Assembly (NCBI GenBank): GCA_003643975.1
Contig: QNAR01000001.1
Coordinates: 1-34,479, forward strand
Reading direction: 5' to 3'
Source of the DNA: Thermotogota bacterium
Lineage (GTDB): Bacteria; Thermotogota; Thermotogae; Petrotogales; Kosmotogaceae
Length of the DNA: 34,479 nt
Below, in pieces: positions 2,178 to 31,867 of this stretch. Both the position numbers and the translations under genes were made by a program. Within the stretch, counting starts at the first letter, position 1, and each line of letters starts with the position of its first letter. A model generated the notes under the pieces. It was not told the DNA's origin. It saw nothing but the letters and a program-made list of their open reading frames with translations, and made no database searches.

Positions 2178-3407
2178 TTAGCGGGGTTGAGAAATATCTT
2201 TGTCTATGATTTTTTTGAGTTCTTCAAAATCCGGCATGATTCGAGCAACACCAGAATCAACAGCGGCCCTGGCCACTGCGACGGCAACAGCTTTGCCTAC
2301 ACCCGGGTCAAATGCCCACGGAATGATCTTGTTCTCGTTGATTTCTGCATCAGGCAAAAACCCCGCCAGGGCATCCACGGCAGCGAGTTTCATTTCATCG
2401 TTTATATCTCTCGCTCTGACGGATAATGCGCCACGGAAAAGACCCGGGAAAACGAGTACATTGTTTATCTGGTTATTGAAGTCGGATCTTCCGGTTGCCA
2501 CGATTCTCGCACCTGCTTCCTTGGCCTCATCTGGATAAATCTCTGGAATGGGGTTTGCAACGGCAAAAACTATGGGATCCTTTGCCATAGACTTAACCAT
2601 GTCTTTATTGACAAGCCCGCCTATGGAAGTTCCGATAAACACATCAGCACCTCTTATGGCATCTTTGAGAGTTCCTGTAAGCCCTTCAGGATTTATCAAG
2701 AGAGCAATTTCTTCGTGAAAAGCATTTAACAGCGTTTCAGGATATTCTTTATTTAAAATACCGTTTTTATCGCATGCCACGATGTTCTTGACGCCAGCTG
2801 CAAGAAGCATTTTTATGATCGCTCCGCCAGCAGCACCTATCCCAACTGTTGCAACCTTGATCTCGCTTAGCTTCTTACCAGTTATTTTCAGTGCATTTTT
2901 CAAGGCAGCGAGTATTATAATAGCCGCTCCATGCTGGTCATCGTGAAAAACCGGAATATCAAGCTTTTCCCTGAGTGCTTTCTCAATGTAAAAACACTGT
3001 GGCGAGGCAATATCTTCAAGATTCACTCCGCCAAAAGTGGGGCTAACCGTTTCTACAAATTCCACTATCTTCTCAGGATCCTGTGTGTTTATACAAAGAG
3101 GGTAAGCGTCAACATTTGCAAATTCCTTGAACAATACCGCTTTTCCTTCCATAACAGGCAGTGCAGCTTCAGGTCCTATATTTCCAAGTCCCAGCACAGC
3201 TGATCCATCTGAGACGATCGCCACTGCATTCCAGCGATTCGTGTAGTTGAAAACTTCATCAGGCTTTTTATGAATCAATCTGGATACATCTGCAACACCC
3301 GGTGTGTAGGCAAGGGCAAGCATCTTCTGATTATTAACCGGTACCCTGCTCTTGACTTCAAGCTTTCCTCTGAACTTTTTATGCAACTCTAATGCTTCGT
3401 TATTCAT
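2178..3407 (-). CDS. NAD(P)-dependent malic enzyme (small MaeB-N/YtsJ-like subfamily)
   Basis: AYTPGVA, SDGSAVLGLGNIG, PVMEGKAVLFK, NLEDI, FHDDQHG, GIGAAG and NQINNVLVFPG motifs. Confidence 0.93.
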   Translation of the reverse strand: MNNEALELHKKFRGKLEVKSRVPVNNQKMLALAYTPGVADVSRLIHKKPDEVFNYTNRWNAVAIVSDGSAVLGLGNIGPEAALPVMEGKAVLFKEFANVDAYPLCINTQDPEKIVEFVETVSPTFGGVNLEDIASPQCFYIEKALREKLDIPVFHDDQHGAAIIILAALKNALKITGKKLSEIKVATVGIGAAGGAIIKMLLAAGVKNIVACDKNGILNKEYPETLLNAFHEEIALLINPEGLTGTLKDAIRGADVFIGTSIGGLVNKDMVKSMAKDPIVFAVANPIPEIYPDEAKEAGARIVATGRSDFNNQINNVLVFPGLFRGALSVRARDINDEMKLAAVDALAGFLPDAEINENKIIPWAFDPGVGKAVAVAVARAAVDSGVARIMPDFEELKKIIDKDISQPR

Positions 3408-3420: not shown

Positions 3421-4434
3421 TCAAATCAATTCGGCAATCTTCACCGAACGATTTTCCTTAGCTGAAATGTCAGCAGCTCTGGCAACGAGGATTGAATAGT
3501 ATCCAGCCTCTACGCCAGCAGAAACGTCCTTATCTTCAAGAACGGATTCAACAAAAGCCCGAATTTCGTTGGCAAAAGACTGCATGTAGCGTTGAGGAAA
3601 GTAGTACAAAGGCTTATCGCTACAAACCGCAGCTTCTGTGCTCACAATGACGTTGGTTTCTCTATCGTTCTCGGCCCGTGCGCTACCTTTCGAACCAAAT
3701 ACTTCTACTCTTTGGTCGTATCCATAGGTGGTTTTTCTACTGACATCAATCGCACAAATCGCACCGTTTTCCATCTTCAATATGGCATAGGCGGTATCGA
3801 AATCTCCCGCTTCGCCTATTCTGGGGTCAAGGAGTACACTGCCACCAGCGTAAACTTCGACTACTTCTGACCCCGTTAAAAACCTTGCAGTGTCAAACTC
3901 ATGGATCATGAAATCGAAGAAGATGCCACCGGATTTCTTCACGAATTCTATATCGGGCAGGTGGGGATCTCTTGAAGTCGTTCTGATCAAATGAATTTCA
4001 CCGAGTTCGCCAGAATCTATAAAGTCTTTGACCTTTCTAAAGTTATGATCAAAGCGCCTATTAAAGGCAATCTGGATTTTAACGCCGGTGTTTTTTAGGT
4101 TTTTATAAAGCTCTCTGGCCGTTTCCAGATTATGTGCAAGGGGCTTTTCCATAAAAACATGTTTTTTTGCTTTAACAGCCGCTTTTAACATTTCACCATG
4201 TAATGTAGTTGGAGATGCGATAACCACGGCGTCTATCTCGGGATCTTCTAAAACATCCTGCCAATTGGCCGTGATTTCGAAGTCGCCCAAACGTTCAGCC
4301 CACTTCTTTGTTTCATCAACCCGCGGATCTGCCAGTGTTTTGACCTTGGCTTCCGGCACGTGCTGAATGAGGTTAGTTGTGTGAATCCTTCCCAATCTTC
4401 CCAACCCTATGACACCTATCCTCAAAGTTTCCAC
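3421..4434 (-). CDS. iolG: Inositol 2-dehydrogenase family (Gfo/Idh/MocA), second paralog
   Basis: GVIGLGRLG, EKPLA, FNRRFD, SRDP, DFMIHEFD and YGYDQRVEVFG motifs. Start moved from TTG 4455 (ORF track) to GTG 4434, which has SD AGGAGA upstream. Confidence 0.85.
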   Translation of the reverse strand: METLRIGVIGLGRLGRIHTTNLIQHVPEAKVKTLADPRVDETKKWAERLGDFEITANWQDVLEDPEIDAVVIASPTTLHGEMLKAAVKAKKHVFMEKPLAHNLETARELYKNLKNTGVKIQIAFNRRFDHNFRKVKDFIDSGELGEIHLIRTTSRDPHLPDIEFVKKSGGIFFDFMIHEFDTARFLTGSEVVEVYAGGSVLLDPRIGEAGDFDTAYAILKMENGAICAIDVSRKTTYGYDQRVEVFGSKGSARAENDRETNVIVSTEAAVCSDKPLYYFPQRYMQSFANEIRAFVESVLEDKDVSAGVEAGYYSILVARAADISAKENRSVKIAELI

Positions 4435-4451
4435 CGAATCATCTCCTGTTC

Positions 4452-5468
4452 TCAAAGAACTTCTTCGAGTTTTACTGGCCTATTCTCTTTAGCCGAGATC
4501 GTGGCAGCTTTGGCAATGACTATGGCCATCAACCCATCATGACCCGACACCGGAACTTCCTTATCTTCAATCAAGCTATCTATAAAATCTTTCATTTCAT
4601 CCTCAAATGATTGCATATATCTTTCAAGGAAGAAGTAAAGTGGCTTGTCACTTGCAACACACTCTTCATTACTGAGTATGACGTTTGTTTCGGTGTCATT
4701 TTCAGCCCGGGCACTCCCTTTTGAACCGAAGACTTCCACACGTTGGTCATAGCCATAGGCTGCTTTTCTGCTGTTGTCTATTATGCAGGTTGCTCCACTT
4801 CTGAATTTCAAAACAGATACAGCGGTATCGTAATCACCGGCATCACCAATTGTGGGATCTATGAGTACGCTTCCAAAGGCACAAACTTCAACGACTTCGT
4901 CTCCGGCAAGGTAACGAGCCATATCGAAATCGTGAATAGTCATATCCATGAAAATGCCACCAGAAACCTTTACGTATTCAATGGGTGGTGGGGCGGGGTC
5001 TCGTGATGTGATATTCACTATATGTACTTCTCCGATTTTTTCATCTTCAACAAGCTTTCTTACTTTCCTGAAATTATGGTCAAAGCGTCTGTTGAAACCT
5101 ATCTGAAGTTTTACCCCTTCTTCTGTTACAACTTCAAGCGCTTTTCTCGTTTTTTCCAGGTCCATATCGATGGGCTTTTCACAGAAAATATCTTTCTTCG
5201 CCCTTGCTGATGCGATTATCAGATCAGCATGAGTGTTGGTAGGCGAGCAGATGATCACCGCATCCACTTCGGGATTATCAATCACATCTTCAGGATCGGT
5301 CACAACGTTGTTTATTCCAACGGAATCAGCCCAGGCTTTGGTTTCTTCAAATCTCGGGTCACAAATTGTTATAACTTCCGCTCTTTCGACCTTTTGAACG
5401 AGATTTTTTGCGTGAATCCTTCCTATCCTGCCAGCTCCTATTACACCAACCTTGATTTTTTTATCCAT
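4452..5468 (-). CDS. iolG: myo-Inositol 2-dehydrogenase
   Basis: GVIGAGRIG, CEKPID, GFNRRFD, SRDP, DMTIHDFD and YGYDQRVE motifs. Adjacent to iolE. ATG 5468 preferred over GTG 5477 because GGAGTG is well spaced from it. Confidence 0.92.
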   Translation of the reverse strand: MDKKIKVGVIGAGRIGRIHAKNLVQKVERAEVITICDPRFEETKAWADSVGINNVVTDPEDVIDNPEVDAVIICSPTNTHADLIIASARAKKDIFCEKPIDMDLEKTRKALEVVTEEGVKLQIGFNRRFDHNFRKVRKLVEDEKIGEVHIVNITSRDPAPPPIEYVKVSGGIFMDMTIHDFDMARYLAGDEVVEVCAFGSVLIDPTIGDAGDYDTAVSVLKFRSGATCIIDNSRKAAYGYDQRVEVFGSKGSARAENDTETNVILSNEECVASDKPLYFFLERYMQSFEDEMKDFIDSLIEDKEVPVSGHDGLMAIVIAKAATISAKENRPVKLEEVL

Positions 5469-5480
5469 CTTCTTCACTCC

Positions 5481-6380
5481 CTAAAATCCGAGAATCTCTT
5501 TCAGATAGGCACGGGCTTTTTTCGCATATTCGAGAGGAGGGGCTATTTTTGGATCCTGTTCCGCTTCAACGACAATCCAGCCTTTGTAATTAATGTCATC
5601 AAGTGCTTTTGCTATCGGCTTGAAATCGATCATGCCATCTCCTGGAACGGTAAAAACGCCCTGCTTAACGGAATATAAAAAGCTCCAATCCTCCTGGAAA
5701 GAGCGCTTCATGACGTCCTCACGCAGATCTTTGAAATGAACGTGCTTTATACGTGAGCCGTAATCTTTTATCATTTGTAAAGGGTCTCCGCCTGCAAAAA
5801 CCAGGTGACCGGTATCGAGAAGCAAATAAACCAGATCAGGGTCAGTGCTTTCCATAAGCCTTCTGACTTCTTCATAGGTCTGAACCCCTGTTCCCATGTG
5901 GTGATGGAACACTATTTTCATATCTTTCTCAGCTGCAAGTTTTCCAAGCTCATGGAGCCCTTTGACGAGTTTCCCCCAATCTTCATCGCTGAAAATTGGC
6001 TTTTGGCTGTGCAATGGTGTATTCATAAGGCCTTGAACGCTTTTTCCGCTTTCGGATACGACTATCACTTTTGCACCCATAGCGTGAAGAAAATCCCTGT
6101 GCTTGATAAAAGCAGCAATAGTTTCTTCGGGATCTTTGGTGGTAAAGTAACTACTGAACCATGCACTTGCTATCTGCAATCCTCTGGGCTCAAGGGCCTT
6201 TTTAAGAACCATGGGATCACGTGGAAATTTGTTGCCAACTTCGCTACCTTCAAAGCCTGCCTCAGCCATTTCATCGATACACTGTTCAAAGGGAATATCA
6301 CCGCCAAGTTCAGGCATGTCATCATTGGTCCAAGCAATTGGAGCAATTGCCAATTTGATGTCTTCTCTTCTGATACCCAT
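5481..6380 (-). CDS. iolE: myo-Inosose-2 (2-keto-myo-inositol) dehydratase
   Basis: APIAWTNDDMPELG N-terminus plus HHHMGT, LLDTGH, HVHFKD, FTVPGDG and WIVVEAEQDP motifs. Confidence 0.95.
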   Translation of the reverse strand: MGIRREDIKLAIAPIAWTNDDMPELGGDIPFEQCIDEMAEAGFEGSEVGNKFPRDPMVLKKALEPRGLQIASAWFSSYFTTKDPEETIAAFIKHRDFLHAMGAKVIVVSESGKSVQGLMNTPLHSQKPIFSDEDWGKLVKGLHELGKLAAEKDMKIVFHHHMGTGVQTYEEVRRLMESTDPDLVYLLLDTGHLVFAGGDPLQMIKDYGSRIKHVHFKDLREDVMKRSFQEDWSFLYSVKQGVFTVPGDGMIDFKPIAKALDDINYKGWIVVEAEQDPKIAPPLEYAKKARAYLKEILGF

Positions 6381-6394: not shown

Positions 6395-8278
6395 TCACCA
6401 CTTGCGGGCGTGTTTTTTCATATATTCGCTGTCTTCCATATATGCTTTTTTCACTGAATCGCTTTCGGATACCTCTGCAACGCCAACTCGCCACCATGAT
6501 TCATATCCACCGGACTGTGTGCCGGGTAAGACTTTCACGTCTATGAGGACGCTTGTGGATTCTTTTCTCGCTTCTTCCAAAGCTTTTCGAAGTTCATTTT
6601 CGTTACGCGCTGTGTAGGCTTTTGCACCTAAGCTCTTCGCTATTCCAGCAAAGTCTATCTGTATATAGTCATCATCGAGTTTTCCTGTTTCTTTCGAACG
6701 ATACCTCAGCTCATTGCCAAATCCTTTTGCGCTTCCATGGGATTTTTGAAGGCTGTTTATGCTCTGGAATCCACCGTTGTCGAGTATAATGACGTTTATC
6801 TTCATTCGTTCCTGCAAACTGGTAAGAAACTCAGAATGAAGCATAAGGAAACTCCCGTCACTCAAAAGGGCGTAGGCTTCCTTTTCAGGTTCGGCCATTT
6901 TCACGCCGAAAGTACCTGAAACTTCATAGCCCATACAGGAAAAACCGTATTCCATGTGATATGACTTGATACCTTTGCATCGCCATAGCCTGTGTAAATC
7001 CCCCGGAAGGCTACCAGCGGCTGCTACAAAAACGTCATTTTCAGTTGCGAAATCATTTATTATGCCAAGCGCTGTGGTTTGTGGGAGCCCTTTTTCAGAT
7101 TCCAGGTGATAAAGCCTGTCCACTTCCCTGTCCCATTCTTCTTTAAGTGTTTTTAGCTCTTCTTTTGAATAATTCGACCTATATCCTTCCTTCTTCAAAC
7201 CTTCCATCAGGACTTCAAGACCGAGCATGGCATCTGCGTTGAGGTGTTCGGCATCCATCTTCAGACCATCGAAATTATTGACATTTATGCTCAGGATTTT
7301 CACATTGGGGTTCTGAAAAGCGGTTTTTGAAGCTGTTGGGAAATCCATAAGCCTTGTACCAACTGCGATTATTAAATCCGCCTCCTTGGCGAGTTTGTTG
7401 GCAGCAAGGGTCCCTGTGGTGCCAACTCCACCCATGTTGAGCGGGTGATCCCACAGCATCGCTCCTTTTCCAGCCTGCGTGAAGGAAACAGGAATGTTAA
7501 AAGCTTCAGCAAATTCCCGTAAGGTATCCACTGCTTGAGAATAATGAACACCACCGCCAGCGATTATCAGCGGCTTTTTCTTAGTCTTAATGAGCCTTAG
7601 TGCTCTCACAAGAGCGCTCTCTGATGGTGGGCGCCTATCTATATGGTGTACTCTTTTCTCAAAGAATTCCACTGGATAATCATAGGCTTCACCCTGCACA
7701 TCTTGTGGAAGGGCAAGGGTAACAGCTCCTGTTTCTGCGGGGTCGGTGAGAACCCTCATAGCGTTTAGCGCTGCAGTAATTAGCTGTTCAGGTCTTTCTA
7801 TTTTGTCCCAGTATTTGCTCACAGCTTTGAAAGCGTCATTAGCCGTGATTTTTGGATTGTAAGGCATTTCTATTTGCTGAAGCACCGGGTCAGGCTGCCT
7901 ATCGGCAAAGATATCTCCCGGGAGCAAAAGCACAGGAATTCTGTTTACAGTTGCAGTAGCAGCACCTGTCACCATATTGAGTGCTCCGGGACCTATCGAA
8001 CTTGTACAGGCAAAGATTTCAAGCCTGTTTTTCTGTTTGGCGAAAGCAGTAGCAGCGTGAACTATCCCCTGCTCATTGTGTCCCTGATAAAATTTAAGAG
8101 AGAGGTCTTTCATGTTTTCAAGGCCTTCGCCAATGCCAAGGAGGTTGCCGTGGCCAAAAATCCCATATACTCCTTTGACAAATTTGTGTTCTTCCCCATC
8201 AAATTCGACATACTGGGCATCAAGGAATTTCAACAAAGCTTGAGCAGTAGTTAAGCGTATTGTTTTCAAATCATTCAC
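6395..8278 (-). CDS. iolD: 3D-(3,5/4)-trihydroxycyclohexane-1,2-dione acylhydrolase (ThDP-dependent, ring opening)
   Basis: RLTTAQAL, GIFGHGN, TSSIGPG, PDPVLQQ, AAGSLPGDLHRLW, YHMEYGFSCMGYE and C-terminal SWWRVGVAEVS motifs. Confidence 0.96.
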   Translation of the reverse strand: MNDLKTIRLTTAQALLKFLDAQYVEFDGEEHKFVKGVYGIFGHGNLLGIGEGLENMKDLSLKFYQGHNEQGIVHAATAFAKQKNRLEIFACTSSIGPGALNMVTGAATATVNRIPVLLLPGDIFADRQPDPVLQQIEMPYNPKITANDAFKAVSKYWDKIERPEQLITAALNAMRVLTDPAETGAVTLALPQDVQGEAYDYPVEFFEKRVHHIDRRPPSESALVRALRLIKTKKKPLIIAGGGVHYSQAVDTLREFAEAFNIPVSFTQAGKGAMLWDHPLNMGGVGTTGTLAANKLAKEADLIIAVGTRLMDFPTASKTAFQNPNVKILSINVNNFDGLKMDAEHLNADAMLGLEVLMEGLKKEGYRSNYSKEELKTLKEEWDREVDRLYHLESEKGLPQTTALGIINDFATENDVFVAAAGSLPGDLHRLWRCKGIKSYHMEYGFSCMGYEVSGTFGVKMAEPEKEAYALLSDGSFLMLHSEFLTSLQERMKINVIILDNGGFQSINSLQKSHGSAKGFGNELRYRSKETGKLDDDYIQIDFAGIAKSLGAKAYTARNENELRKALEEARKESTSVLIDVKVLPGTQSGGYESWWRVGVAEVSESDSVKKAYMEDSEYMKKHARKW

Positions 8279-9065
8279 CTCCGAAAGGCCATATGGAAGC
8301 GTCTTTTTCCGTTACCCACAGATGTTCCAGTTCAAAGGTAGGCACTGTATAAGGGTTACCATCAAGATGCCTTATGGCCCATATGTAATACATGGCGTAT
8401 CCCGGTGCACTTACCTGTGGATGAGAGAGATCATCAAGGATTTTCAGCGTATCACCATGCCTGATCTTATAAACATCCTCGCCCAACATCCCAAAGCCAA
8501 AGCCCTGCTCGGGAAAGAAGCGATAATGGTATATTTCAGGCTGAGGATGGTGGTGTGGCGGATAACTTGACCACTTGCCAGGGTAATTTACCACCTCTCC
8601 AAGCACCAGTTTGGCATCTGGGGCGTTGGTTACATCAAAAATAGTACGCACGATCCTCGTAGAAGTTTCGCGCATTGTGCCTTCGCCTCTGTGTTCTGAC
8701 CTGGTATCGTTCCCCTGATAAAGCCGACATTCAAAAACCGCATCATTTGTAGTTGCAAAAATTGCGATTTCTGCATTGGTTTTGGCCTCGATTTTTACCT
8801 CAGTGCTCATTGGAACATGCAGGCATACAGGTTCATTTTCCAAAAGAGAGTCTCTTTTTACCAGTTCTACCCTTCCATTCCATTCGAAAGATATTTCCCC
8901 TTTCATCAGCAGGAAAGCTCTTTCCTTTCCGGGCTGGCTTTTGTAGGTTTGTTGGCCCTTCAACAAAAGTAGACCAAAATCCATCATTGTATCTTTCTCT
9001 GATTCACCCTCCCGGGTTATTTCGTTAAAACCTTGTATGCGTTTCTTCGCTTTTAGCAAATACAT
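8271..9065 (-). CDS. iolB: 5-Deoxy-D-glucuronate isomerase
   Basis: LVLGEVVNYPGKWSSYPPHHH, EIYHYRF and HPQVSAPGYAMYYIW motifs. 8-nt overlap with iolD. Confidence 0.93.
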   Translation of the reverse strand: MYLLKAKKRIQGFNEITREGESEKDTMMDFGLLLLKGQQTYKSQPGKERAFLLMKGEISFEWNGRVELVKRDSLLENEPVCLHVPMSTEVKIEAKTNAEIAIFATTNDAVFECRLYQGNDTRSEHRGEGTMRETSTRIVRTIFDVTNAPDAKLVLGEVVNYPGKWSSYPPHHHPQPEIYHYRFFPEQGFGFGMLGEDVYKIRHGDTLKILDDLSHPQVSAPGYAMYYIWAIRHLDGNPYTVPTFELEHLWVTEKDASIWPFGGE

Positions 9066-9088: not shown

Positions 9089-10051
9089 TTATTTTCTTAA
9101 AAGGACATTTTTAACGCTGGCTGCTATATCCTGAGCTGTCATATTGAAGCGTTTCTTCAGGTAGTCAACATCTCCAACTTCGCCAAACAAATCTTTTACC
9201 CCCACTCTTTCAATGGGTACAGGGCACGTTTCAGCGACCACTTCGGCAACTGCAGAACCAAGGCCGTTATATATATTGTGGTTTTCGGCTGTCACAATTG
9301 CCCCGGTTTCAGATGCACATTTTTCAATGAGCTCTCTATCTATGGGTTTAATGGTAAAGATGTTAACTACTCTTGCATCAATGCCCTCACTTGCCAGCAA
9401 ATCAGCGGCATCAAGAGCTTCTGCCACCATGATTCCCGTGGCAATAATAGTGACATCTTTCCCTTCTCTGAGAACTATTCCTTTTCCAATCTCAAAACTT
9501 GAACCTTCTTCGAATACCCGTATTGTTGTTTTTCTCGAAATCCTCACGTAGAATGGTCCGTAAGAATAGGTTATGTCTTTTAGAAGGGCTTTCATCATTA
9601 CAGTATCAACAGGCTCTATAATCGTGATGGTAGGAATTCCCCTCACAAAGCCAATATCTTCCAAAGGCATATGAGTTCCACCGTTATATGCAGCGGTTAC
9701 TCCTGGATCTGTTGCCATCATCTTCACGTTTAGCTTGTTATAGGCTATGGAGATATATACCTGATCAAGAGCCCTTCTAGTGCTGAAACAAGCAAAGGTA
9801 TGAGTGAAGGGGATCTTGCCAGTGGCAGAAAGACCTGCGGCAATGCCCATCATATTGGCTTCCTGAACTCCCACGTTAATCGCTCTTTCAGGGAATTTTT
9901 CTAAAAATCTGTAAGTACCATTGGAATGCATCAAATCCGCATCGAGTACGATTATATTTGGATCACTCTTTGCAAACTCTATGAGCTGGTCGATATAGAC
10001 ATCTCTCATCATTACAGTGTCGGGTTTTCTCTTTTCAACGAGTTTGATCAT
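9089..10051 (-). CDS. Split transketolase, C-terminal (pyrimidine-binding + C-terminal domain) subunit
   Basis: VLDADL, NVGVQEANMMGIAAG, RALDQ, NGGTHM, TIKPID and AENH motifs. ATGA overlap with the N-subunit. Confidence 0.92.
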   Translation of the reverse strand: MIKLVEKRKPDTVMMRDVYIDQLIEFAKSDPNIIVLDADLMHSNGTYRFLEKFPERAINVGVQEANMMGIAAGLSATGKIPFTHTFACFSTRRALDQVYISIAYNKLNVKMMATDPGVTAAYNGGTHMPLEDIGFVRGIPTITIIEPVDTVMMKALLKDITYSYGPFYVRISRKTTIRVFEEGSSFEIGKGIVLREGKDVTIIATGIMVAEALDAADLLASEGIDARVVNIFTIKPIDRELIEKCASETGAIVTAENHNIYNGLGSAVAEVVAETCPVPIERVGVKDLFGEVGDVDYLKKRFNMTAQDIAASVKNVLLRK

Positions 10052-10908: not shown

Positions 10909-12171
10909 TTATTCACCTCGCTTGATTTTAGGGAGTGTAGAAGCTCCAAGGGGAAATACGGCGTATTTTGCGTTCATCCCCTTTTCACCAAAAGCTTCTT
11001 TTACAGCTTCAGTAGGGTTATCAAAGCATCTTATGCCAACTAACTTTTCTTCTGCGAATTCTTTATTGGTAACCAGGAAAATTTCCGATGTTTTTAACAC
11101 GACTTTGGATATTGCAGCTGCTTTGTGGCCACCCAGGACAAAATTTTCTTTCAGGCCTTCAACCAGTTCCGTAGGCTTTTTTCCAGAGGTAATCCATTCT
11201 TTGAAAGTTTTACTTCCGTATTTCTCTGGACATTCGGCAAAAAGAATCATTCTACCACCGGGTTTCAAAACCCCGGCGCAGTTATCTATCGCCTTTTGCG
11301 CTTGATAGAGGTTGATATCCTTTGGATATCCTCCAGCGCTTACAATGACAATGTCAAGAGGCTCTTTAATGGGAACAAGCCCACTTTTTTCAAGGCGTTC
11401 AGCCAATATCCTGTGTGCCTTGATCCAATCACCAGAAGCAGCATCGATCACTCTATGATGTTCGCCCACAACCACGTTCAAGACGAAATCAATTCCCAGA
11501 AAACTCACACCCTCTTCGATATCCATGCGTACAGGATTGTCGTAAATAGAAGCCGCTTCAGCACCATCTTCCATCATGTGGCTGTGATTTTGTCTGATCG
11601 TTTTGGCAGAAGCGACACCGGGTAGAATGGCTTTGGCACCACCGGAAAATCCGGCAAAATAATGAAATTCCACGTTGCCAAGGCAAATTCTGAAATCAGC
11701 CTCAACAACAGGGCGAAAAAATTCTACTCTCGTCCCCCGGGTGGTTGTGCCCACATAAACCGTATTGTCCACGTCATGATTCAAAACTCTAATTCTTTCG
11801 TAGATACTTTTGCCAACCGCCTTTTGCAATTCATCTTCCGTCATCTTTCTGTGAAGGCCTAAGGCAATTACAATTGTTATATCCTCATCATTCACACCTG
11901 CTTTATTCAGCCTGTCAATGACATGAGGCAAAAGAACATCACTGGGGCATGGCCGGGTCAAATCGCTGGTCACTATCACCACTTTCTGTCCTGGCTTAAC
12001 TAGCTGTTCAACTCTTTCCGTGCCCACCGGATGATTTAAGGCTTTTTCAACAAGTGCATTTTCTGAATCGGTGATGGATTGCCGTTGGGGGTGATACTCA
12101 CCAACAAATCCTTTCTCAGGTAATTCAACTTTTACAGTCGATTCACCATATGGAAGTTCAAAATTGAGCAT
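10909..12171 (-). CDS. larA: LarA-family nickel-pincer-dependent 2-hydroxyacid racemase/epimerase (predicted malate racemase)
   Basis: SDLTRP, ALGLHR, NHD, FHYFAGFSGGAK, NHS, GGYPKDINLYQAQKA and GGHKA motifs. Family assignment is firm; the substrate is inferred from context. Confidence 0.88.
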   Translation of the reverse strand: MLNFELPYGESTVKVELPEKGFVGEYHPQRQSITDSENALVEKALNHPVGTERVEQLVKPGQKVVIVTSDLTRPCPSDVLLPHVIDRLNKAGVNDEDITIVIALGLHRKMTEDELQKAVGKSIYERIRVLNHDVDNTVYVGTTTRGTRVEFFRPVVEADFRICLGNVEFHYFAGFSGGAKAILPGVASAKTIRQNHSHMMEDGAEAASIYDNPVRMDIEEGVSFLGIDFVLNVVVGEHHRVIDAASGDWIKAHRILAERLEKSGLVPIKEPLDIVIVSAGGYPKDINLYQAQKAIDNCAGVLKPGGRMILFAECPEKYGSKTFKEWITSGKKPTELVEGLKENFVLGGHKAAAISKVVLKTSEIFLVTNKEFAEEKLVGIRCFDNPTEAVKEAFGEKGMNAKYAVFPLGASTLPKIKRGE

Positions 12172-13436
12172 TATTTTTCAACCTTCCTGTACGCCTTTTT
12201 CAGAGCCTTAATAAGAGGAAGCTCTTTGCCAGATAAGAAGCGTACCATAGCTCCTCCAGCAGTACATATATAGCCAAACTTCTTATTGGCATTTTCTACG
12301 AGCTTCTGCGCAGCGGAGACACTATCTCCGCCTCCGATAACGCTATAACCCGGAGCTTCAGCAATGGCATTCCATATCTCTCTTGTCCCCTTTTCAAAAA
12401 GCGGGTTTTCATACGCTCCAGCGGGCCCGTTTATAAAAATCGTTCCTGCTTTCATGATTTCACCCTTATACAGCTCTATGGTCTTTTCACCTATATCAAG
12501 GAAAAGAGCATTATCAATTGGAAGCTCGTTGATAGAGCATTCCACACGTTTTCCATCTTTTTCATATGCAAAGTCTACAGGATTGAGAAACCTGTCGCCA
12601 AAGCGAGCAAGATAATCTTTGGCAGGTTCAATGAAGGCATCGAGAGAACGATCGAAAATGAATTTTTCCTGCTGCTTGCCGACCGATCTTCCCATAGCCA
12701 TTTGCATGACTATTCCCGTCACACCACAGGTCAAGATTTTATCAGCAGTGCCATTTTCGAGGACCTGTTTCATCATTCCGAAAGCATCGGATATTTTCAA
12801 CCCTCCAAGAACAAAAACAGCGGGCTTTTCAGGGCTTTCCATCACTTTTGTTAATGCTGAAAGCTCTTTGAAGAGAAGCCTGCCTGCCGCCGTAGGCAAA
12901 AGCTCTTCGAAAGCGACCATGGAAGGTGAGTTCCTATGTGCTGCCGAAAAAGCGTCGTTTACATAGTAATCTGCAAGAGGGGCAAGATTACGAACTATGT
13001 AGGTATTCAACATCTCATGCGCTTCGAGCTTTACAGCGTTCTCAAAGGTTGAAACTTCTTCTGTTAGATATCTAACATTTCCCAGCAGTACCGCTTCGCC
13101 TGGCTTCAGGCTTTTCACCATTTCCTGCGCAGCCGGCCCGGCAACATCATCGATGTATTTCACGGGTTTTCCAAGCTTTTCTGACAACTTTTCAGCATGC
13201 TCAGCCATGGAAATGAGATTATGGTAATCGAGCGTATCTCCCTGATGTGCTAGTATAGCCAGCTTTGCCCCTTTTTCCATTAGTTCCCTGATTGTAGGTA
13301 TACTTTGATTTATTCTATTTTCATTGGCTATTTTTTTTGTTTTCGGATCGAGAGGGGAGTTGATATCAATCCTCAGGATAACTGTCTTATCATGGAAGTT
13401 AAAGTCATCGAGAGTATTTATCAAAATCTCTCGCAT
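12171..13436 (-). CDS. pgk: Phosphoglycerate kinase family, archaeal-like, with an altered substrate site
   Basis: RIDINSP, AHQGD (canonical H[LQ]GR), LLGNVRY, VNDAFSAAHR, LGGLK, NGPAG, GGGD and TAGGA motifs. 1-nt TAATG overlaps on both sides. Confidence 0.9.
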   Translation of the reverse strand: MREILINTLDDFNFHDKTVILRIDINSPLDPKTKKIANENRINQSIPTIRELMEKGAKLAILAHQGDTLDYHNLISMAEHAEKLSEKLGKPVKYIDDVAGPAAQEMVKSLKPGEAVLLGNVRYLTEEVSTFENAVKLEAHEMLNTYIVRNLAPLADYYVNDAFSAAHRNSPSMVAFEELLPTAAGRLLFKELSALTKVMESPEKPAVFVLGGLKISDAFGMMKQVLENGTADKILTCGVTGIVMQMAMGRSVGKQQEKFIFDRSLDAFIEPAKDYLARFGDRFLNPVDFAYEKDGKRVECSINELPIDNALFLDIGEKTIELYKGEIMKAGTIFINGPAGAYENPLFEKGTREIWNAIAEAPGYSVIGGGDSVSAAQKLVENANKKFGYICTAGGAMVRFLSGKELPLIKALKKAYRKVEK

Positions 13437-14458
13437 TACTTATGCCTCCCTATTTTTAGGTATTTGTTCGTAAGCCCAACGGCTTCCAGCCTATCCGCCT
13501 GCATTTCCATAGCGGCTCTGATACCATCAATCGTCTCGGGAATAACCACGGACTCTTGTGGAATATGCAGGGAATATATGAGGTGGTCTTCAAAAGGCGT
13601 AACTGTTTCTTCCCATATGGAAATTTCGTACATATCGCCGCGCGGATTTCCCAAATCACGTGCATAGCGGAATATGGAAGCGTTACCCAGAAAACCATCT
13701 TCTATTTTTACCAGCCTGATTCTTGGGTGTTCTCTGAATATCTCAATGGCCTCTTCTTTGGAAACTTTCTTTTTGGGTTTGGCAAAAACGGTGATGAAAT
13801 GACCATGGGTAACGGGAGTGTGCACCAAAACGCCGGTGGCCTTCACATGAGGCATTATGAGCATTAAGTCAACCGCTTGATGGTTAGGAACCGGATCAAC
13901 TTTCAGCGCATTAGTAAGACCTCTGTGGTAATCTCCCGGATCAGCAACACGCCTCACAATATGAATCATCGCGGATTCCACTCCAACAGCTCTATCTAAG
14001 CAATCTACAGAACGAATTAAACCAGTGGTATTGCATGAAGTAAGTTTCAAGAATTGTTTTCCTATACCTTTTTCATAATTTGCATATCCGTGAAAAAACA
14101 CATCGGCAACGCTTGTTTTTTCTCCACCCTGGAAAATAGCTTTTTTGCCGTATTTTTCGTAAAGGACTTTGTTTTTCGCACCTACGCCAGCATTGGTTGC
14201 ATCAAGAACTATATCCACTTTTTTAATCAGGTCTTCCAGATTTCCAGAAATAGGAATGCCAGCTTTTTCAACCTTTTCCCGGTTTTCCTCAACGGAAAGG
14301 TAAAAATCGTAGGGCATTCCCTTCTCTTTTAGAGCCCTAACGGCAAGCGTCGGAGCAACATCCGCTACACCAACAAGTTCCATGTCTTCTTGAAGTGCAA
14401 CTCCATCAGCGAGACGTTGGCCTATCACACCATAACCAACTACACCAACTTTTACCAT
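13436..14458 (-). CDS. gap: Type II (archaeal-class) glyceraldehyde-3-phosphate dehydrogenase homolog, first gene of the operon
   Basis: GYGVIGQRLAD, IFQGGEK, catalytic SCNTTGL, IVRRVADP, RDLGNPRGDMYE and QESVVIPETIDGIRA all match class II GAPDH. SD GGAGG. Confidence 0.9.
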   Translation of the reverse strand: MVKVGVVGYGVIGQRLADGVALQEDMELVGVADVAPTLAVRALKEKGMPYDFYLSVEENREKVEKAGIPISGNLEDLIKKVDIVLDATNAGVGAKNKVLYEKYGKKAIFQGGEKTSVADVFFHGYANYEKGIGKQFLKLTSCNTTGLIRSVDCLDRAVGVESAMIHIVRRVADPGDYHRGLTNALKVDPVPNHQAVDLMLIMPHVKATGVLVHTPVTHGHFITVFAKPKKKVSKEEAIEIFREHPRIRLVKIEDGFLGNASIFRYARDLGNPRGDMYEISIWEETVTPFEDHLIYSLHIPQESVVIPETIDGIRAAMEMQADRLEAVGLTNKYLKIGRHK

Positions 14459-14472: not shown

Positions 14473-14486
14473 TGTATGCGTATTCA
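14473..14486. promoter_or_regulatory. Possible third LacI-type operator next to the gap RBS (overlaps a Rex-like half site)
   Basis: Minus strand TGAATACGCATACA matches 11/14 positions of TGTAAGCGCATACA at 14740-14753. Confidence 0.4.
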
Positions 14487-14611: not shown

Positions 14612-14627
14612 ATGTATTCGCTTACAT
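14612..14627. promoter_or_regulatory. LacI-family operator, copy 2
   Basis: ATGTATTCGCTTACAT is a pseudo-palindrome with central CG, 15/16 identical to the reverse complement of 14739-14754. Confidence 0.65.
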
Positions 14628-14738: not shown

Positions 14739-14754
14739 ATGTAAGCGCATACAT
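14739..14754. promoter_or_regulatory. LacI-family operator, copy 1
   Basis: ATGTAAGCGCATACAT is a near-perfect palindrome with central CG. It abuts a minus-strand TTGTCA -35-like hexamer (14754-14759). Confidence 0.68.
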
Positions 14755-14801: not shown

Positions 14802-14824
14802 AAAAAAGGGCCTTTAGGCCCTTT
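14802..14824 (-). terminator. Intrinsic terminator of the BMP-family gene
   Basis: Minus strand AAAGGGCC-TAAA-GGCCCTTT running into a T6 tract, about 30 nt after the stop codon. Confidence 0.85.
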
Positions 14825-19280: not shown

Positions 19281-20399
19281 ATGGTGAAATTGAAGACATT
19301 TTTTCATGAAAGAATTAACAAATTACGAGAAGAAATTCTCACTCCGAGAAAAGCTAAAGGACTGCTAATAAGCCGTAGTGATAACTTTTCATGGTTAACC
19401 TTCGGAGCAAGAAACCACATAACACTCAACACTGTTGAAGGGGTTGCTTCCCTATTAATAACCGAGGATTCAGTAATTTTGTTGACTGACAACATCGAAA
19501 AAGAGAGGCTAAAGAGTGAAGAATTTTACAGTGATATCTGGGACAAATTGGAAGTTCTCGAATATAACTGGTGGGAAGGAGAAGAAAATGCACTTTCACG
19601 ACTTTTCATTGCTCCAGCAAAAGAGCTTATTTCCGATACCGGCAGATATGACACTTCGAACCTCAATTCCAGGATTGTCCCCTTTCGATATGCGCTTGTA
19701 GAACCTGAGATTGAAACTTATAGGCAGCTGGGAAAAGACTGTGACGAGATCTTTTGGGAGTTGATGCCAAAATTATCCCCGGAAAATACAGAGCTGCAAG
19801 TTCAGGGAATGTTTTATGAAGCCCTTGCCAAAAAAGGCATTGAACCTCTCTTGACGATAGTTTTCGGCGAAGACAGCTCAATACGATACAGGCATAACCT
19901 CTCCAGAAATATCACACTTGGAAAAAGCGTTTTTGTGAGTGTCTGCGCTCGAAAACGTGGGCTTGTTGTTTCTTCCACGAGATCCGCCCTCTTTGAGTTG
20001 AACAATGAACTCATAGAACAGCACAGGAAGAATTGCTACGTTGATGCAGTCGCCATAGCCAACTCTTTACCGGGAAATAGACTGTCGCGCGTATTCGCTG
20101 AGATAAGAAGAGCTTATAAGGCAATCGGTTATGAAGGAGAATGGGAGCTTCATCATCAAGGGGGAATTGCTGGATACAATCCCCGAGAATTATTGGCTTC
20201 AGATTTCAGTGAATATGTTTTGGAAAAAGGAGTCGCTGTTGCCTGGAACCCAACAATCACCGGCACTAAATCAGAAGATACTGCTATTGTAGGTGAAGTT
20301 CCTGAGATAATTTCATTTCCTGAGGGCAGTCATTGGCCAGTTATAAAGTTAAATGCCAATGATTATGTTATCCGAAGACCAGATATACTTGTTCTTTAG
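19281..20399 (+). CDS. M24 (Xaa-Pro peptidase/creatinase-fold) family protein
   Basis: Creatinase-like N-domain (NFSWLT) and C-domain YRH, HHQGG.GY..RE, AWNP, KSEDT motifs. Confidence 0.78.
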   Translation: MVKLKTFFHERINKLREEILTPRKAKGLLISRSDNFSWLTFGARNHITLNTVEGVASLLITEDSVILLTDNIEKERLKSEEFYSDIWDKLEVLEYNWWEGEENALSRLFIAPAKELISDTGRYDTSNLNSRIVPFRYALVEPEIETYRQLGKDCDEIFWELMPKLSPENTELQVQGMFYEALAKKGIEPLLTIVFGEDSSIRYRHNLSRNITLGKSVFVSVCARKRGLVVSSTRSALFELNNELIEQHRKNCYVDAVAIANSLPGNRLSRVFAEIRRAYKAIGYEGEWELHHQGGIAGYNPRELLASDFSEYVLEKGVAVAWNPTITGTKSEDTAIVGEVPEIISFPEGSHWPVIKLNANDYVIRRPDILVL

Positions 20400-20437
20400 T
20401 TTCTACATATTTCAAGATATAAATCCAAAAACCCGGG

Positions 20438-21550
20438 CTAAACTTTTTTCTCAAACGTCGCATATTCCTTGTAAAGCTCCCCACCAGCCCCAAGGGCATC
20501 TTGAAAACTCTTTTTGTTTTCAAAGCCTATTATGCCGCCTTCGGCCATTGTATAACCCTTTTTGATGGCGTTCATGCCAACATGGTAATGCATGGCAAAG
20601 GAAACGCCTTTCCCCTGGAATTTCTCCACCACGAAAACGGTAAAGGTCCTGAAGGTCTTTATTTCTTTCTTTGCTTTCAAGAATTTCAACCAGCCAAAGG
20701 GATAAAGGCGTCCATTTAACTCCTTGAGTACTTCATTGTAATTGGGAATACTCGCTGCAAACCCTATCGGTTCATCGCCATGATATGCGATGGCTACAAG
20801 ATCTGGATCGGCAAAGCGTTTCATATCTTTTACGATCTGAAGCATTTCTTCAAAGGAAGGTGGTCTGACCCCGACCCAATAATCGGGTATTGAGTTTTCC
20901 ATAACCGTTTTCAGATCACGCGCGACTTTTTTGAGATTTCTCATCTGGGGCGAAATGATTTCATAATCGTAGCGCTTTTTGGCAATTTCAATGAGTTGAA
21001 TAATTTTTTCTGGAACAGGCTTGCTCAAGTCGTATTTGAAACACGCCAGGTGGGTTTTCATAGCGAATCCGATTTCTTCCAGCAGTCGCTGGTAGTACGG
21101 GGGATTGTAGTTCATGTTGATAAAGGGTGGGTCATCAAAATTCTTTATGAGAATGGCTTTATAGTCATCACCATTTGTGGGTGAATCAGTACCGATGTAT
21201 TTTTCAATACGCATTTCTTTGAACCAGTTATCAGCGCCGTGAAAAAGAAGGTCAACAATGCTGAGATCGTCGTAGCTCTCAAAAAGGGTAAAAGATCCCA
21301 CGTTGTTACCGTGCTTCAAAACGTTTTTGTTGATATATACTCCAAGACGGCCCACAGGTTGATGTGCATTCATAACAAGGAAAAATTCTCTTCCGCCACT
21401 CATTACAGGAGCTCCTTTGCTAATCGCTTTCTTGACCATGGAATTCAGCGGTGGAATCCATTGGGGAGTGTTTTTATACAGCTCGTAGGGTAAGCGAATA
21501 AAGTTTTTCACATCTTTATCAGAAACAACTTTTTTGAGCCTCAATTTCAT
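20438..21550 (-). CDS. YghO-like double-GNAT N-acyltransferase
   Basis: FIRLPYELY..PQWIPPL, VGRL, FTLFE, MNYNPPYY, PNYNEVLKELNGRLYPFGWLKFL and the acetyl-CoA loop VVEKFQGKGV. Confidence 0.72.
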   Translation of the reverse strand: MKLRLKKVVSDKDVKNFIRLPYELYKNTPQWIPPLNSMVKKAISKGAPVMSGGREFFLVMNAHQPVGRLGVYINKNVLKHGNNVGSFTLFESYDDLSIVDLLFHGADNWFKEMRIEKYIGTDSPTNGDDYKAILIKNFDDPPFINMNYNPPYYQRLLEEIGFAMKTHLACFKYDLSKPVPEKIIQLIEIAKKRYDYEIISPQMRNLKKVARDLKTVMENSIPDYWVGVRPPSFEEMLQIVKDMKRFADPDLVAIAYHGDEPIGFAASIPNYNEVLKELNGRLYPFGWLKFLKAKKEIKTFRTFTVFVVEKFQGKGVSFAMHYHVGMNAIKKGYTMAEGGIIGFENKKSFQDALGAGGELYKEYATFEKKV

Positions 21551-22866: not shown

Positions 22867-22948
22867 AATGAAATTATACAATATCTAATGGCGATAACTG
22901 CGCAATTACATTGTTGTTCCGCCTCTTTTTTTATAATAACCATACATA

Positions 22949-22957
22949 TGTTAGAAT
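22949..22957 (+). promoter_or_regulatory. Extended -10 promoter (TG-n-TAGAAT) for the riboswitch leader
   Basis: TGTTAGAAT ends 6 nt before the first G of riboswitch P1 (22964). Confidence 0.6.
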
Positions 22958-22961
22958 ATTT

Positions 22962-23010
22962 ATGGATGATGGAGTCCGTCCTAATTGCCAAAAGGCTAAT
23001 GACTCCTACC
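22962..23010 (+). ncRNA. Fluoride riboswitch (crcB motif) aptamer
   Basis: GGATGATGGAGTCCGTCC-TAATT-GCC-AAAA-GGC-TAATGACTCCTAC. P1 22964-68/22977-81, conserved GATGGAGT, P2 GCC/GGC, conserved CTAATG, pseudoknot GGAGTC (22971-76) with GACTCC (23001-06), terminal CTAC. Confidence 0.92.
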
Positions 23011-23036
23011 TTTATGGGTAGGAGTTTTATTTTTTT
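23002..23036 (+). terminator. Riboswitch-controlled intrinsic terminator (expression platform)
   Basis: ACTCCTACC-TTTATG-GGTAGGAGT 9-bp stem followed by TTTATTTTTTT. The 5' arm is the pseudoknot strand of the aptamer. Confidence 0.9.
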
Positions 23037-23052
23037 CAGGCAGGCGGTGCAT

Positions 23053-23760: not shown

Positions 23761-23784
23761 ATAACTTCCTGGGAGGTATAAAAG

Positions 23785-30908: not shown

Positions 30909-30909
30909 A

Positions 30910-30924
30910 TGGGGCTTAGCCCCA
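30910..30924 (+). other. Short stem-loop between rbsC and rbsB
   Basis: TGGGGC-TTA-GCCCCA followed by ATTTT. Confidence 0.5.
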
Positions 30925-30946
30925 ATTTTGAAGGGGAGGGAACACT

Positions 30947-31819: not shown

Positions 31820-31825
31820 GTGCTG

Positions 31826-31851: not shown

Positions 31852-31867
31852 CTTTGGGAGGATAATT

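What the first reader, a model, noticed from the sequence alone, without database searches (positions are those of the whole stretch)
13436..14458. Archaeal-class GAPDH in a bacterial sugar operon, with a remodelled substrate motif
Seen: class II GAPDH motifs with an intact catalytic SCNT, but the segment I recall as PSHHG in archaeal enzymes reads PNHQA (about 13874-13888). An Asp at the end of beta-2 (VGVAD) suggests NAD over NADP. Established: bacteria, including Thermotogota, normally use class I GAPDH. Inference: an archaeal-type gap-pgk pair was recruited together as a phosphorylating semialdehyde dehydrogenase/kinase module.
Basis: partly seen in the sequence, partly recalled or inferred. 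Interest (0 to 1): 0.75.

Follow-up and report, generated by a model that had tools for sequence, protein, structure and literature searches.

The report
GAPDH look-alike heading an inositol operon
An archaeal-style copy of the glycolytic enzyme GAPDH and its partner kinase lead an inositol-breakdown operon in a bacterium that already has ordinary glycolysis genes, and they likely oxidise a four-carbon acid aldehyde to D-malate while making ATP, a reaction predicted here and not yet assayed.

Summary
The ORF is a type II GAPDH by HMM and predicted fold, with SCNT intact, PNHQA at 13874-13888 and Asp33. It is the first gene of an operon: pgk, larA, split transketolase, iolB/D/E/G/G, malic enzyme, ABC transporter. 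Class I gap and pgk-tpi lie elsewhere in the genome.

QA and Asp33 mark a bacterial clade (86/86 loci); 120 archaeal-type relatives have HG/HA and 119 have Lys. A paper found no G3P activity for a 75%-identical ortholog (crude extract). In the window's phylum 7/151 genomes carry the gene; all 7 have iolD and a D-malate-handling gene. IolC was found in 1/39 carriers. Among 18 iolD-positive Clostridia, this gene (6) and iolC (9) never co-occur.

Likely route: transketolase cleaves 2-deoxy-5-keto-gluconate to D-malic semialdehyde; the pair oxidises it to D-malate plus ATP.

Caveats: no step is assayed. Q194 lies in the sulfate/Pi site, while the Arg pair for substrate phosphate is kept. LarA's cofactor genes were not found. 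An archaeal donor is not shown. The scan reached the same reading on at least eight other genomes.

The parts
13436..14458 (-). Type II GAPDH-like gene, first gene of the operon; predicted NAD-dependent phosphorylating D-malic semialdehyde dehydrogenase
   Evidence: function inferred
14360..14362 (-). Asp33, where archaeal enzymes have Lys; predicted NAD preference
   Evidence: Asp in 86/86 clade loci, Lys in 119/120 archaeal-type proteins; role of the Lys from PMC12041015
14027..14038 (-). Catalytic S141-C142-N143-T144, intact
13949..13954 (-). Arg169-Arg170, the pair that binds substrate phosphate in M. fervidus GAPDH; kept
   Evidence: RR in 86/86 and 120/120; role from PMC12041015
13874..13888 (-). 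PNHQA (191-195); Q194-A195 replace His-Gly of the sulfate/Pi site
13799..13801 (-). His220, equivalent of the catalytic base His219; kept
   Evidence: alignment; role
12171..13436 (-). PGK-like gene overlapping gap by 1 nt; HQGD (Asp67) where ordinary PGKs have H-x-G-R/K; predicted D-malyl-1-phosphate:ADP phosphotransferase
   Evidence: PF00162; best PDB hit 2CUN, 296 vs 205 bits for 1VPE; no basic residue at this position in 83/83 clade PGKs; R or K in the PDB chains shown, the genome's own PGK and 3 haloarchaeal PGKs
10909..12171 (-). LarA-family racemase, malate-racemase type (His349-Lys350)
   Evidence: NF052593 493 bits vs cut-off 500; best PDB hit Mar2 6D6Z; H/Q-K rule in PMC11770544
10048..10902 (-). 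Split transketolase, N-terminal subunit
9089..10051 (-). Split transketolase, C-terminal subunit; D115 and N123 replace the His and Asp of ordinary transketolases
   Evidence: D and N in 37/37 clade copies
8271..9065 (-). IolB/KduI-family isomerase
   Evidence: PF04962; TIGR04378 95 bits, below the cut-off of 205
6395..8278 (-). iolD
   Evidence: TIGR04377 927/715
5481..6380 (-). iolE
   Evidence: TIGR04379 429/290
4452..5477 (-). iolG, first copy
   Evidence: TIGR04380 491/355
3421..4455 (-). iolG, second copy
   Evidence: TIGR04380 421/355
2178..3407 (-). Malic enzyme
   Evidence: PF00390 + PF03949
92..2087 (-). Sugar ABC binding protein (best model: rhizopine SBP, below cut-off) and permease; the ATPase and a LacI gene are on contig C190, in the order seen in G050
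14613..14626 (.). Palindromic LacI-type operator candidate 1
   Evidence: identical in G050, similar in G048; 'LacI-type' is recalled
14740..14753 (.). Palindromic LacI-type operator candidate 2, 127 bp from the first; a weaker third site at 14473-14486
14805..14824 (-). Terminator-like hairpin between the upstream BMP gene and the operon
   Evidence: consensus match only

Best explanation
The GAPDH-like and PGK-like genes head a myo-inositol operon that lacks iolC, iolJ and iolA, and they likely form an ATP-yielding module that oxidises D-malic semialdehyde to D-malate. Shown: operon order, family assignments, residue changes and co-occurrence. Inferred steps: (1) IolG, IolE, IolD and IolB turn inositol into 2-deoxy-5-keto-D-gluconate, as in the canonical route. 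(2) Instead of being phosphorylated, this ketose acid, which has D-fructose-like C3/C4 geometry when read from the keto end, is cut by the altered split transketolase. The C2 unit goes to an aldose phosphate of the pentose phosphate pathway, releasing OHC-CHOH-CH2-COO- with a D-configured hydroxyl, a near-isostere of G3P with carboxylate in place of phosphate. (3) The GAPDH-like enzyme (Cys142, His220, NAD+, Pi) forms D-malyl-1-phosphate; Arg169/Arg170 would hold the distal carboxylate. (4) The PGK-like enzyme transfers the phosphate to ADP. (5) D-malate is drained by LarA racemase plus malic enzyme here, or by a D-malate/tartrate decarboxylating dehydrogenase in the five other carriers of this phylum. 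My arithmetic, to acetate: about 3.3 ATP per inositol (about 4 with PPi-PFK) against 3 for the canonical route.
For: OPERON AND REGULATION: gaps of -8 to +23 nt from gap to mae; conserved palindromes upstream and a terminator before them; same gene order in G050. NOT HOUSEKEEPING: class I gap in the own genome and in 20/20 carriers. WET-LAB NEGATIVE: P. thermosuccinogenes type II GAPDH CDQ83_07070 had no activity on G3P with NAD+ or NADP+, while both class I enzymes worked (PMC6543838 Table 5). The species' type II protein P0065 is 75% identical and has PNHQA and Asp33, and its ends match the paper's primers by my own reading. OWN PHYLUM: gapII 7/151, iolD 8/151, all 7 within the 8; the eighth genome's contig breaks inside the operon. 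D-MALATE SINK: TIGR02089 passes its cut-off in exactly 5/151 genomes, all carriers and all beside the iol genes; the other 2 carriers have larA + mae. IOLC EXCLUSION: in a Clostridia sample of 300 scored genomes, iolD 18, of these gapII 6, iolC 9, both 0, neither 3 (Fisher p=0.009, kin not independent). IolC over cut-off in 1 of 39 carriers; in that one (G468) gap-pgk follows an aminotransferase in a separate operon. 80 LOCI: pgk 78, larA 49, mae 23, larA/mae/LeuB-like 54, iolD or iolE 37; no PfkB kinase, class II aldolase or ALDH above 60 bits in the 37. 10 of 14 genomes whose gap-pgk locus lacks iolD/E have iolD elsewhere, against 18/300 background. All 5 spirochaete genomes whose iol locus lacked transketolase have the DPG/NGG type elsewhere. 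PARALLEL CHANGES: PGK basic residue lost 83/83; transketolase His-to-Asp and Asp-to-Asn 37/37. PRECEDENTS: transketolase plus semialdehyde dehydrogenase convert 5-keto-D-gluconate to tartrate (PMC13527115); malic semialdehyde to D-malate to pyruvate in Acinetobacter (PMC11353897 abstract).
Against: No step has been assayed with the proposed substrates. The negative G3P assay was in heat-treated crude extract with arsenate; the gel showing expression is a figure I could not see. The Arg pair assigned to G3P's phosphate is intact, and Q194 sits in the sulfate/Pi site, which fits an ordinary or a non-phosphorylating enzyme equally well. HQ and Asp33 also occur in another bacterial type II branch. 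LarA needs the NPN cofactor, but larB, larC and larE were not found in this genome (84% complete) or in the single-contig genomes G050 and G048. G000 and G050 also lack the TIGR02089 dehydrogenase, so the D-malate exit in this very genome is unexplained. 4 of 10 Clostridia carriers and 4 of 14 further carriers have no iolD found. In G310 the pair is about 160 kb from iolD. The fetched iol loci of small gut Clostridia show no transketolase or malate gene (the rest of those genomes was not searched for them). One iol locus (L040) has a weak PfkB hit at its edge.
Confidence: 0.77

Rival explanations
1. The pair is an ordinary second GAPDH/PGK for G3P, co-induced with inositol genes to supply or remove triose phosphate for the transketolase.
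For: It passes the equivalog cut-offs; catalytic residues and the Arg pair for G3P phosphate are kept; HHA and HQG variants exist elsewhere.
Against: No G3P activity for the 75% ortholog; class I gap is always present; PGK basic-patch loss in 83/83; it does not explain the link to D-malate enzymes or the exclusion of iolC.
Confidence: 0.07
2. Same chemistry, but the true or broader substrate is another tetruronate such as tartrate semialdehyde, made by transketolase from 5-keto-gluconate or a related keto-aldonate; the product is tartrate.
For: The TIGR02089 family and malate racemases also act on tartrate; 3 loci carry IolN and 2 carry IolO-like genes; transketolase cleavage of 5-keto-gluconate is published.
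Against: This operon has IolE/IolD/IolB, whose product is the 2-deoxy compound, plus malic enzyme; IolN was not found in this genome. The reading may apply to other loci of the clade.
Confidence: 0.07
3. The GAPDH-like enzyme is a non-phosphorylating (hydrolytic) malic semialdehyde dehydrogenase because the Pi site is altered, and the PGK-like protein does something else or is a passenger.
For: Q194/A195 lie in the sulfate/Pi site; E. coli erythrose-4-phosphate dehydrogenase is a recalled precedent for a hydrolytic GAPDH paralogue.
Against: pgk is in 78/80 loci, overlaps gap here, keeps its ATP-binding motifs and has dN/dS about 0.02 against G050, with dS near saturation; four of the five sulfate-site residues are kept.
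Confidence: 0.06
4. The pair runs reductively (malate to malic semialdehyde) or serves an unrelated compound, and the inositol link is regulatory or historical.
For: Carriers without iolD exist, and some loci lie among unrelated genes.
Against: Catabolic neighbours, an NAD-type Asp, near-perfect co-occurrence with iolD in the phylum, and mutual exclusion with iolC.
Confidence: 0.03

Closest known systems
Archaeal type II phosphorylating GAPDH (TIGR01546/NF003251; PDB 2CZC, 1CF2, 2YYY, 1B7G)
   Same: Fold (TM 0.91-0.94), 36-42% identity, S-C-N-T, catalytic His, Arg-Arg, Gln301.
   Different: Bacterial accessory gene beside class I gap; Lys-to-Asp at the cofactor site; HG-to-QA; 35 positions fixed differently between the two sets; separate branch of length 0.92, SH-aLRT 99; ortholog inactive on G3P.
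Canonical myo-inositol catabolism (iolG/E/D/B/C/J/A; e.g. Anaerostipes, PMC8355322, passages seen)
   Same: IolG, IolE, IolD and an IolB-family gene are present.
   Different: No IolC kinase, IolJ aldolase or IolA in the operon; split transketolase, gapII, pgk, larA and mae instead; predicted C2+C4 cleavage rather than C3+C3.
Malic semialdehyde dehydrogenase and D-malate dehydrogenase of Acinetobacter carnitine catabolism (PMC11353897, abstract seen)
   Same: Same proposed intermediate, D-malate product and decarboxylating dehydrogenase as sink.
   Different: That enzyme uses a Cys/Glu pair (ALDH type, recalled) and no phosphorylated step is described; here a GAPDH fold with a kinase is predicted to conserve ATP.
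Transketolase + semialdehyde dehydrogenase route from 5-keto-D-gluconate to L-tartrate (PMC13527115, passages seen)
   Same: Transketolase cleaves an unphosphorylated 5-keto-aldonate to a C4 acid aldehyde.
   Different: Engineered in yeast, 2-hydroxy substrate, oxidation by succinate semialdehyde dehydrogenase, no kinase.
Engineered malate kinase / malate semialdehyde dehydrogenase (PMC5481828, passages seen)
   Same: Malyl-phosphate and malate semialdehyde chemistry; the paper states these activities were unreported in 2017.
   Different: Built from aspartate kinase and Asd, L-malate, C4 position, reductive; here D-malate, C1 position, oxidative, natural (predicted).
Sulfo-transketolase and apiose transketolase pathways (recalled; the apiose paper was not held)
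   Same: Split transketolase variants acting on unusual sugars, followed by oxidation of the released aldehyde.
   Different: Different substrates; not compared by any search.

Membership tests
Type II (archaeal) phosphorylating GAPDH | Scores above the family HMM cut-offs | tested here: met
   408/185 and 314/233
Type II (archaeal) phosphorylating GAPDH | Type II fold | tested here: met
   TM 0.91-0.94 to 2CZC/1CF2/2YYY/1B7G against at most 0.68 to class I (predicted model)
Type II (archaeal) phosphorylating GAPDH | Catalytic Ser-Cys-Asn-Thr and His219 equivalent | tested here: met
   S141-T144 and H220
Type II (archaeal) phosphorylating GAPDH | Arg167/Arg168 substrate-phosphate site | tested here: met
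   RR in 86/86
Type II (archaeal) phosphorylating GAPDH | His193-His194(-Gly) of the sulfate/Pi site | tested here: not met
   HQA; the second His is present in 120/120 archaeal-type proteins and 0/86 clade loci
Type II (archaeal) phosphorylating GAPDH | Lys at the end of beta-2 linked to NADP use | tested here: not met
   Asp33 in 86/86; Lys in 119/120 archaeal-type
Type II (archaeal) phosphorylating GAPDH | Oxidises G3P | not testable with these tools
   Published negative for a 75% identical ortholog in crude extract (PMC6543838)
Glycolytic phosphoglycerate kinase | PF00162 and ATP-binding motifs | tested here: met
Glycolytic phosphoglycerate kinase | Basic residue after H-x-G in the 3-phosphate-binding patch (role recalled) | tested here: not met
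   Asp in 70/83, Ser or Gly in 13/83; R or K in all comparators seen. The archaeal comparator set is small: one PDB chain and three haloarchaeal proteins.
Canonical iol pathway | IolG, IolE, IolD, IolB | tested here: met
   (IolB by Pfam only; below the TIGR04378 cut-off)
Canonical iol pathway | IolC kinase | tested here: not met
   Best 183 bits vs cut-off 300 in the own genome, 84% complete; none over cut-off in single-contig G050 and G048
Canonical iol pathway | IolJ aldolase and IolA in the cluster | tested here: not met
   None in the operon; the genome has one class II aldolase and ALDH-family hits on other contigs, not identified further
LarAH6 malate racemase | NF052593 cut-off | tested here: inconclusive
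   493 vs 500; the G048 orthologue passes at 506.6
LarAH6 malate racemase | Catalytic and NPN-binding residues and the H/Q-K malate signature | tested here: met
LarAH6 malate racemase | NPN biosynthesis genes larB/larC/larE in the genome | tested here: not met
   Not found in G000, G050, G048
ALDH-type malic semialdehyde dehydrogenase | PF00171 ALDH family | tested here: not met
   Only PF02800 hits the protein

The most novel reading that the evidence does not exclude
Anaerobic bacteria of several phyla share a third, kinase-free inositol pathway built from three co-adapted central-metabolism paralogues: a ketoacid transketolase, a natural phosphorylating D-malic semialdehyde dehydrogenase and a natural D-malate kinase. 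The GAPDH/PGK pair is a portable substrate-level-phosphorylation module also fed by other sources of malic semialdehyde, such as an aminotransferase. This would give the 'archaeal GAPDH in bacteria', for which a 2019 paper saw no functional evidence, a function.
Probability: 0.7. Interest if true: 0.8.

Novelty: new variant of a known kind. Interest (0 to 1): 0.66.

Why it matters
If right, this defines two enzyme activities that I did not find described in nature (phosphorylating D-malic semialdehyde dehydrogenase and D-malate 1-kinase) and a new branch of inositol catabolism in anaerobes, including gut Clostridia and spirochaetes. It corrects an equivalog-level annotation for a large protein clade and explains a published puzzle: a bacterial type II GAPDH with no G3P activity. 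It is directly testable with four purified proteins. A natural malate kinase and malyl-phosphate chemistry also matter to metabolic engineers, who had to build related activities by mutagenesis (PMC5481828). The parts are all of known families and the logic parallels other transketolase-based routes, so it is a variant, not a new category.

Tried and rejected
Literature searches found no paper describing this route. Searches returned nothing; some searches returned only canonical iol, carnitine or unrelated papers, judged from search listings. The library lacks most subscription journals, so absence from print is not shown. Two recalled papers were not held.

The metagenome scan for archaeal gap-pgk loci gave only two weak partial matches, so no archaeal PGK set and no PGK tree were built. 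Plasmid PGKs served only as a small motif control. The Atlas search of the PGK returned PGK clusters only.

The careful tree did not finish; the quick tree is reported. The class I outgroup sits on a very long branch and the root is not meaningful. dS was saturated for most gene pairs. The first ORF-based neighbourhood table dropped some genes behind antisense ORFs and was replaced by tblastn. The promoter scan gave no more sigma-70 matches than shuffles. RNA runs: none was listed. No earlier notes were found near this place or by words. No complex prediction or docking was run.

Rejected: 'only GAPDH in the genome'; 'HQA is a one-off mutation'; 'HQ or Asp33 alone is diagnostic'.
Full report
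OBSERVATION. The ORF at 13436-14458 (-) encodes 340 aa and passes both type II GAPDH models. Its closest solved relatives are four archaeal enzymes, by sequence and by predicted fold. In 120 archaeal-type relatives (hits of a Hodarchaeota protein, including named Pyrococcus, Thermococcus and Archaeoglobus proteins) the motif is PSHHG in 113 and PSHHA in 7, with Lys33 in 119. In 86 clade loci it is PxHQA in 86, with Asp33 in 86. Among 69 near-full-length representatives outside the clade that keep the catalytic Cys (of 150 listed; fragments, clade members and Cys-less rows dropped), HQA is absent, but HHA (25), HQG (3), HQS (1) and Asp33 (11) occur. The combination is the clade's signature, not either change alone.

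WHAT THE CHANGED RESIDUE DOES. A 2025 review (PMC12041015, section 38 read) gives for M. fervidus: Cys140 nucleophile, His219 base, a sulfate-marked site of Ser139, Asn141, Arg167, His193 and His194, Arg167/Arg168 for the substrate's phosphate, and a Lys tied to NADP use. Here Cys, the base His, both Arg and four of five sulfate-site residues are kept; His194 is Gln and the Lys is Asp. The enzyme therefore looks catalytically live and probably NAD-using, with an anion site still able to bind an anionic substrate tail. HQA by itself does not show a new substrate.

SURROUNDINGS. The gene is first in a tightly packed run: gap, pgk, larA, tktN, tktC, iolB, iolD, iolE, iolG, iolG, malic enzyme, ABC binding protein, permease. 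Gaps from gap to mae are -8 to +23 nt. Upstream are two strong and one weak palindrome and a terminator-like hairpin. The pattern gave 7 strand-matches against 1.1 expected, but it was drawn from these sites, so the real test is conservation: identical sites in G050, and three similar sites before a LacI gene that precedes gap in G048. The LacI orthologue and ABC ATPase are on contig C190, in G050's order. The genome has class I gap and a pgk-tpi fusion on C159 and no IolC over cut-off. The closest named protein is from Kosmotoga olearia, 88% identical, and the phylum control rings for the pattern expected of Thermotogota.

CLADE. The 120 nearest proteins are 72-99% identical; named ones are almost all bacterial, one is labelled Parvarchaeota. 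A quick IQ-TREE run of 78 rows separates 27 clade rows (with three Cys-less oddities) from 47 other type II rows, including 14 named archaea, by a branch of 0.92, SH-aLRT 99. The HQG group lies on the other side. The root is not resolved, so an archaeal donor is plausible but not shown. The PGK is likewise closest to an archaeal structure (2CUN; organism recalled as P. horikoshii) and only 34% identical to the genome's own PGK.

CO-OCCURRENCE. In the best 80 of 492 confirmed loci, tblastn finds pgk in 78, larA in 49, malic enzyme in 23, iolD or iolE in 37 and the transketolase pair in 33-34. None of the 37 has a PfkB kinase, class II aldolase or ALDH above 60 bits; one has a weak PfkB hit at its edge, and a true IolC query found nothing. 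In the phylum, gapII is in 7/151 genomes and iolD in 8/151, nested; the eighth has a contig break in the operon. The tartrate/D-malate dehydrogenase model TIGR02089 passes in exactly five genomes, all carriers, with the gene among the iol genes; the other two carriers have larA plus malic enzyme, and G048 has both larA and the dehydrogenase. Two unrelated D-malate-handling enzymes thus fill the same slot, which is the strongest pointer to the product. In a Clostridia sample (301 drawn, 300 scored) iolD is in 18, gapII in 10 and iolC in 9. Among the 18: gapII 6, iolC 9, both 0, neither 3 (p=0.009 with or without the centre genome, kin not independent). Five of the six have the pair beside iol genes; G310 does not. 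Over all 39 carriers tested, IolC passes in one, G468, whose gap-pgk follows a GABA-aminotransferase-family gene and precedes mae and larA. Ten of 14 carriers chosen because their locus lacked iolD/E have iolD elsewhere, and five of five spirochaete genomes without a linked transketolase have the same type elsewhere. Class I gap is in 20/20 carriers.

PARTNER ENZYMES CARRY PARALLEL CHANGES. The PGK has Asp (70) or Ser/Gly (13) in 83 clade copies where every comparator seen has Arg or Lys; from memory this residue binds the 3-phosphate of 3-phosphoglycerate. The transketolase C-subunit has DPG...NGG in 37/37 copies where the C. hydrogenoformans and human enzymes have HAG/HCG...EDG; from memory these are a phosphate-binding His and the Asp that reads the acceptor's 2-OH. 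LarA has the H-K malate signature of PMC11770544 (section 6 read), and Mar2 is its best structure (PMC7583248 passages).

EXPERIMENTAL CLUE. PMC6543838 (passages and supplement captions seen) expressed three P. thermosuccinogenes GAPDHs in E. coli. Both class I enzymes were active with NAD+; the type II enzyme CDQ83_07070 was inactive with NAD+ and NADP+, and the authors note no functional evidence for class II in bacteria. The species' type II protein P0065 is a clade member (75%, PNHQA, Asp33). The assay used heat-treated crude extract, and the expression gel is a supplementary figure I could not see, so misfolding is not excluded.

MECHANISM (inferred). The IolB product 2-deoxy-5-keto-D-gluconate, read from its keto end, is 5-deoxy-fructuronate with the D-threo C3/C4 arrangement that transketolases take (established chemistry, my reasoning). 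Removing two carbons leaves malic semialdehyde with a D-configured 2-OH, shaped like G3P with CH2-COO- for CH2-O-PO3. Oxidative phosphorylation gives D-malyl-1-phosphate, the kinase gives ATP and D-malate, and a racemase plus malic enzyme, or D-malate dehydrogenase, gives pyruvate and CO2. This accounts for the missing iolC/J/A, the intact Arg pair, the lost PGK Arg and the two alternative D-malate sinks. Precedents exist for each half: PMC13527115 for transketolase on 5-keto-gluconate and PMC11353897 for malic semialdehyde to D-malate to pyruvate. Transamination of 4-amino-3-hydroxybutyrate would give the same aldehyde in the two aminotransferase loci (inference; lead from an earlier scan note).

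AGAINST. Nothing is assayed positively. larB, larC and larE were not found in this genome, G050 or G048. This also holds for a whole family of the phylum: 17/18 genomes have a LarA match, 0/18 have larC and 0/16 tested have larB. It is therefore not peculiar to this operon, but it leaves the D-malate exit in G000 and G050 open. Eight carriers have no iolD found. The fetched iol loci of small gut Clostridia show no transketolase or malate gene.

NOVELTY. Ten literature searches (listed under Tried and rejected) found no description; subscription journals are largely outside the library. The scan's earlier agents reached the same reading on at least eight other genomes; I had written this reading before opening them and do not count them as evidence. 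New variant of a known kind; interest 0.66.

Noticed in passing
L105:4573-10857 (G187); similar layout in L106 (G218): An iolD-positive Clostridia locus with neither iolC nor gapII carries iolB, a transaldolase-like gene (NF002881, 121 bits, below cut-off) and IolA (TIGR01722 passes). Inference: another kinase-free route in which a transaldolase moves a C3 unit from 2-deoxy-5-keto-gluconate and releases malonic semialdehyde.
   Followed up: partly
window 10909-12171; G091-G107: Malate-racemase-type LarA without detectable cofactor genes: 17/18 genomes of family f8 have a LarA match, 0/18 have larC and 0/16 tested have larB; likewise G050 and G048. Suggests cofactor uptake, an unknown biosynthesis route or a cofactor-free role.
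   Followed up: partly
P0127, P0130, P0134: Three full-length type II GAPDH homologues lack the catalytic SCNT in the alignment yet pass NF003251 and fall on the clade's side of the tree: possible pseudo-enzymes.
   Followed up: partly
P0142, P0156, P0206, P0221: A separate type II branch with PSHQG and Asp33; one member is named as Dehalococcoidia. Context not examined.
   Followed up: no
L036:8638-14800; L056:8618-12300: gap-pgk (with mae-larA in L036) directly follows a GABA-aminotransferase-family gene and a sigma-54-type activator: a second possible source of malic semialdehyde.
   Followed up: partly
L008, L038, L053: gap-pgk-transketolase-larA occur with IolN (3 loci) and IolO-like genes (2 loci): possible tartrate-forming variant.
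   Followed up: partly
L011, L019, L041, L053, L058, L072, L074, L076, L077, L079-L082: A second PGK subtype (HQGSD/HQGGD, 44-50% identical to the window's) pairs with the same GAPDH clade.
   Followed up: partly
G000 contigs C190, C188, C99: Pairs of similar palindromes lie next to other LacI genes in the genome; those on C190 (2669, 2783) precede the probable inositol regulator.
   Followed up: partly
window 22888-27386 (+): DUF6062 gene, MoxR-type AAA ATPase and two downstream ORFs (436 and 466 aa) with no Pfam or NCBIfam hit at the thresholds used.
   Followed up: no
window 27501-33162 (+): Ordinary ribose operon: LacI, ABC transporter, ribokinase, RbsD.
   Followed up: no
window 19281-22881: A 372-aa ORF (+) and a 370-aa ORF (-) with no NCBIfam hit at the thresholds used; the latter overlaps a GPH-family sugar symporter gene.
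   Followed up: no
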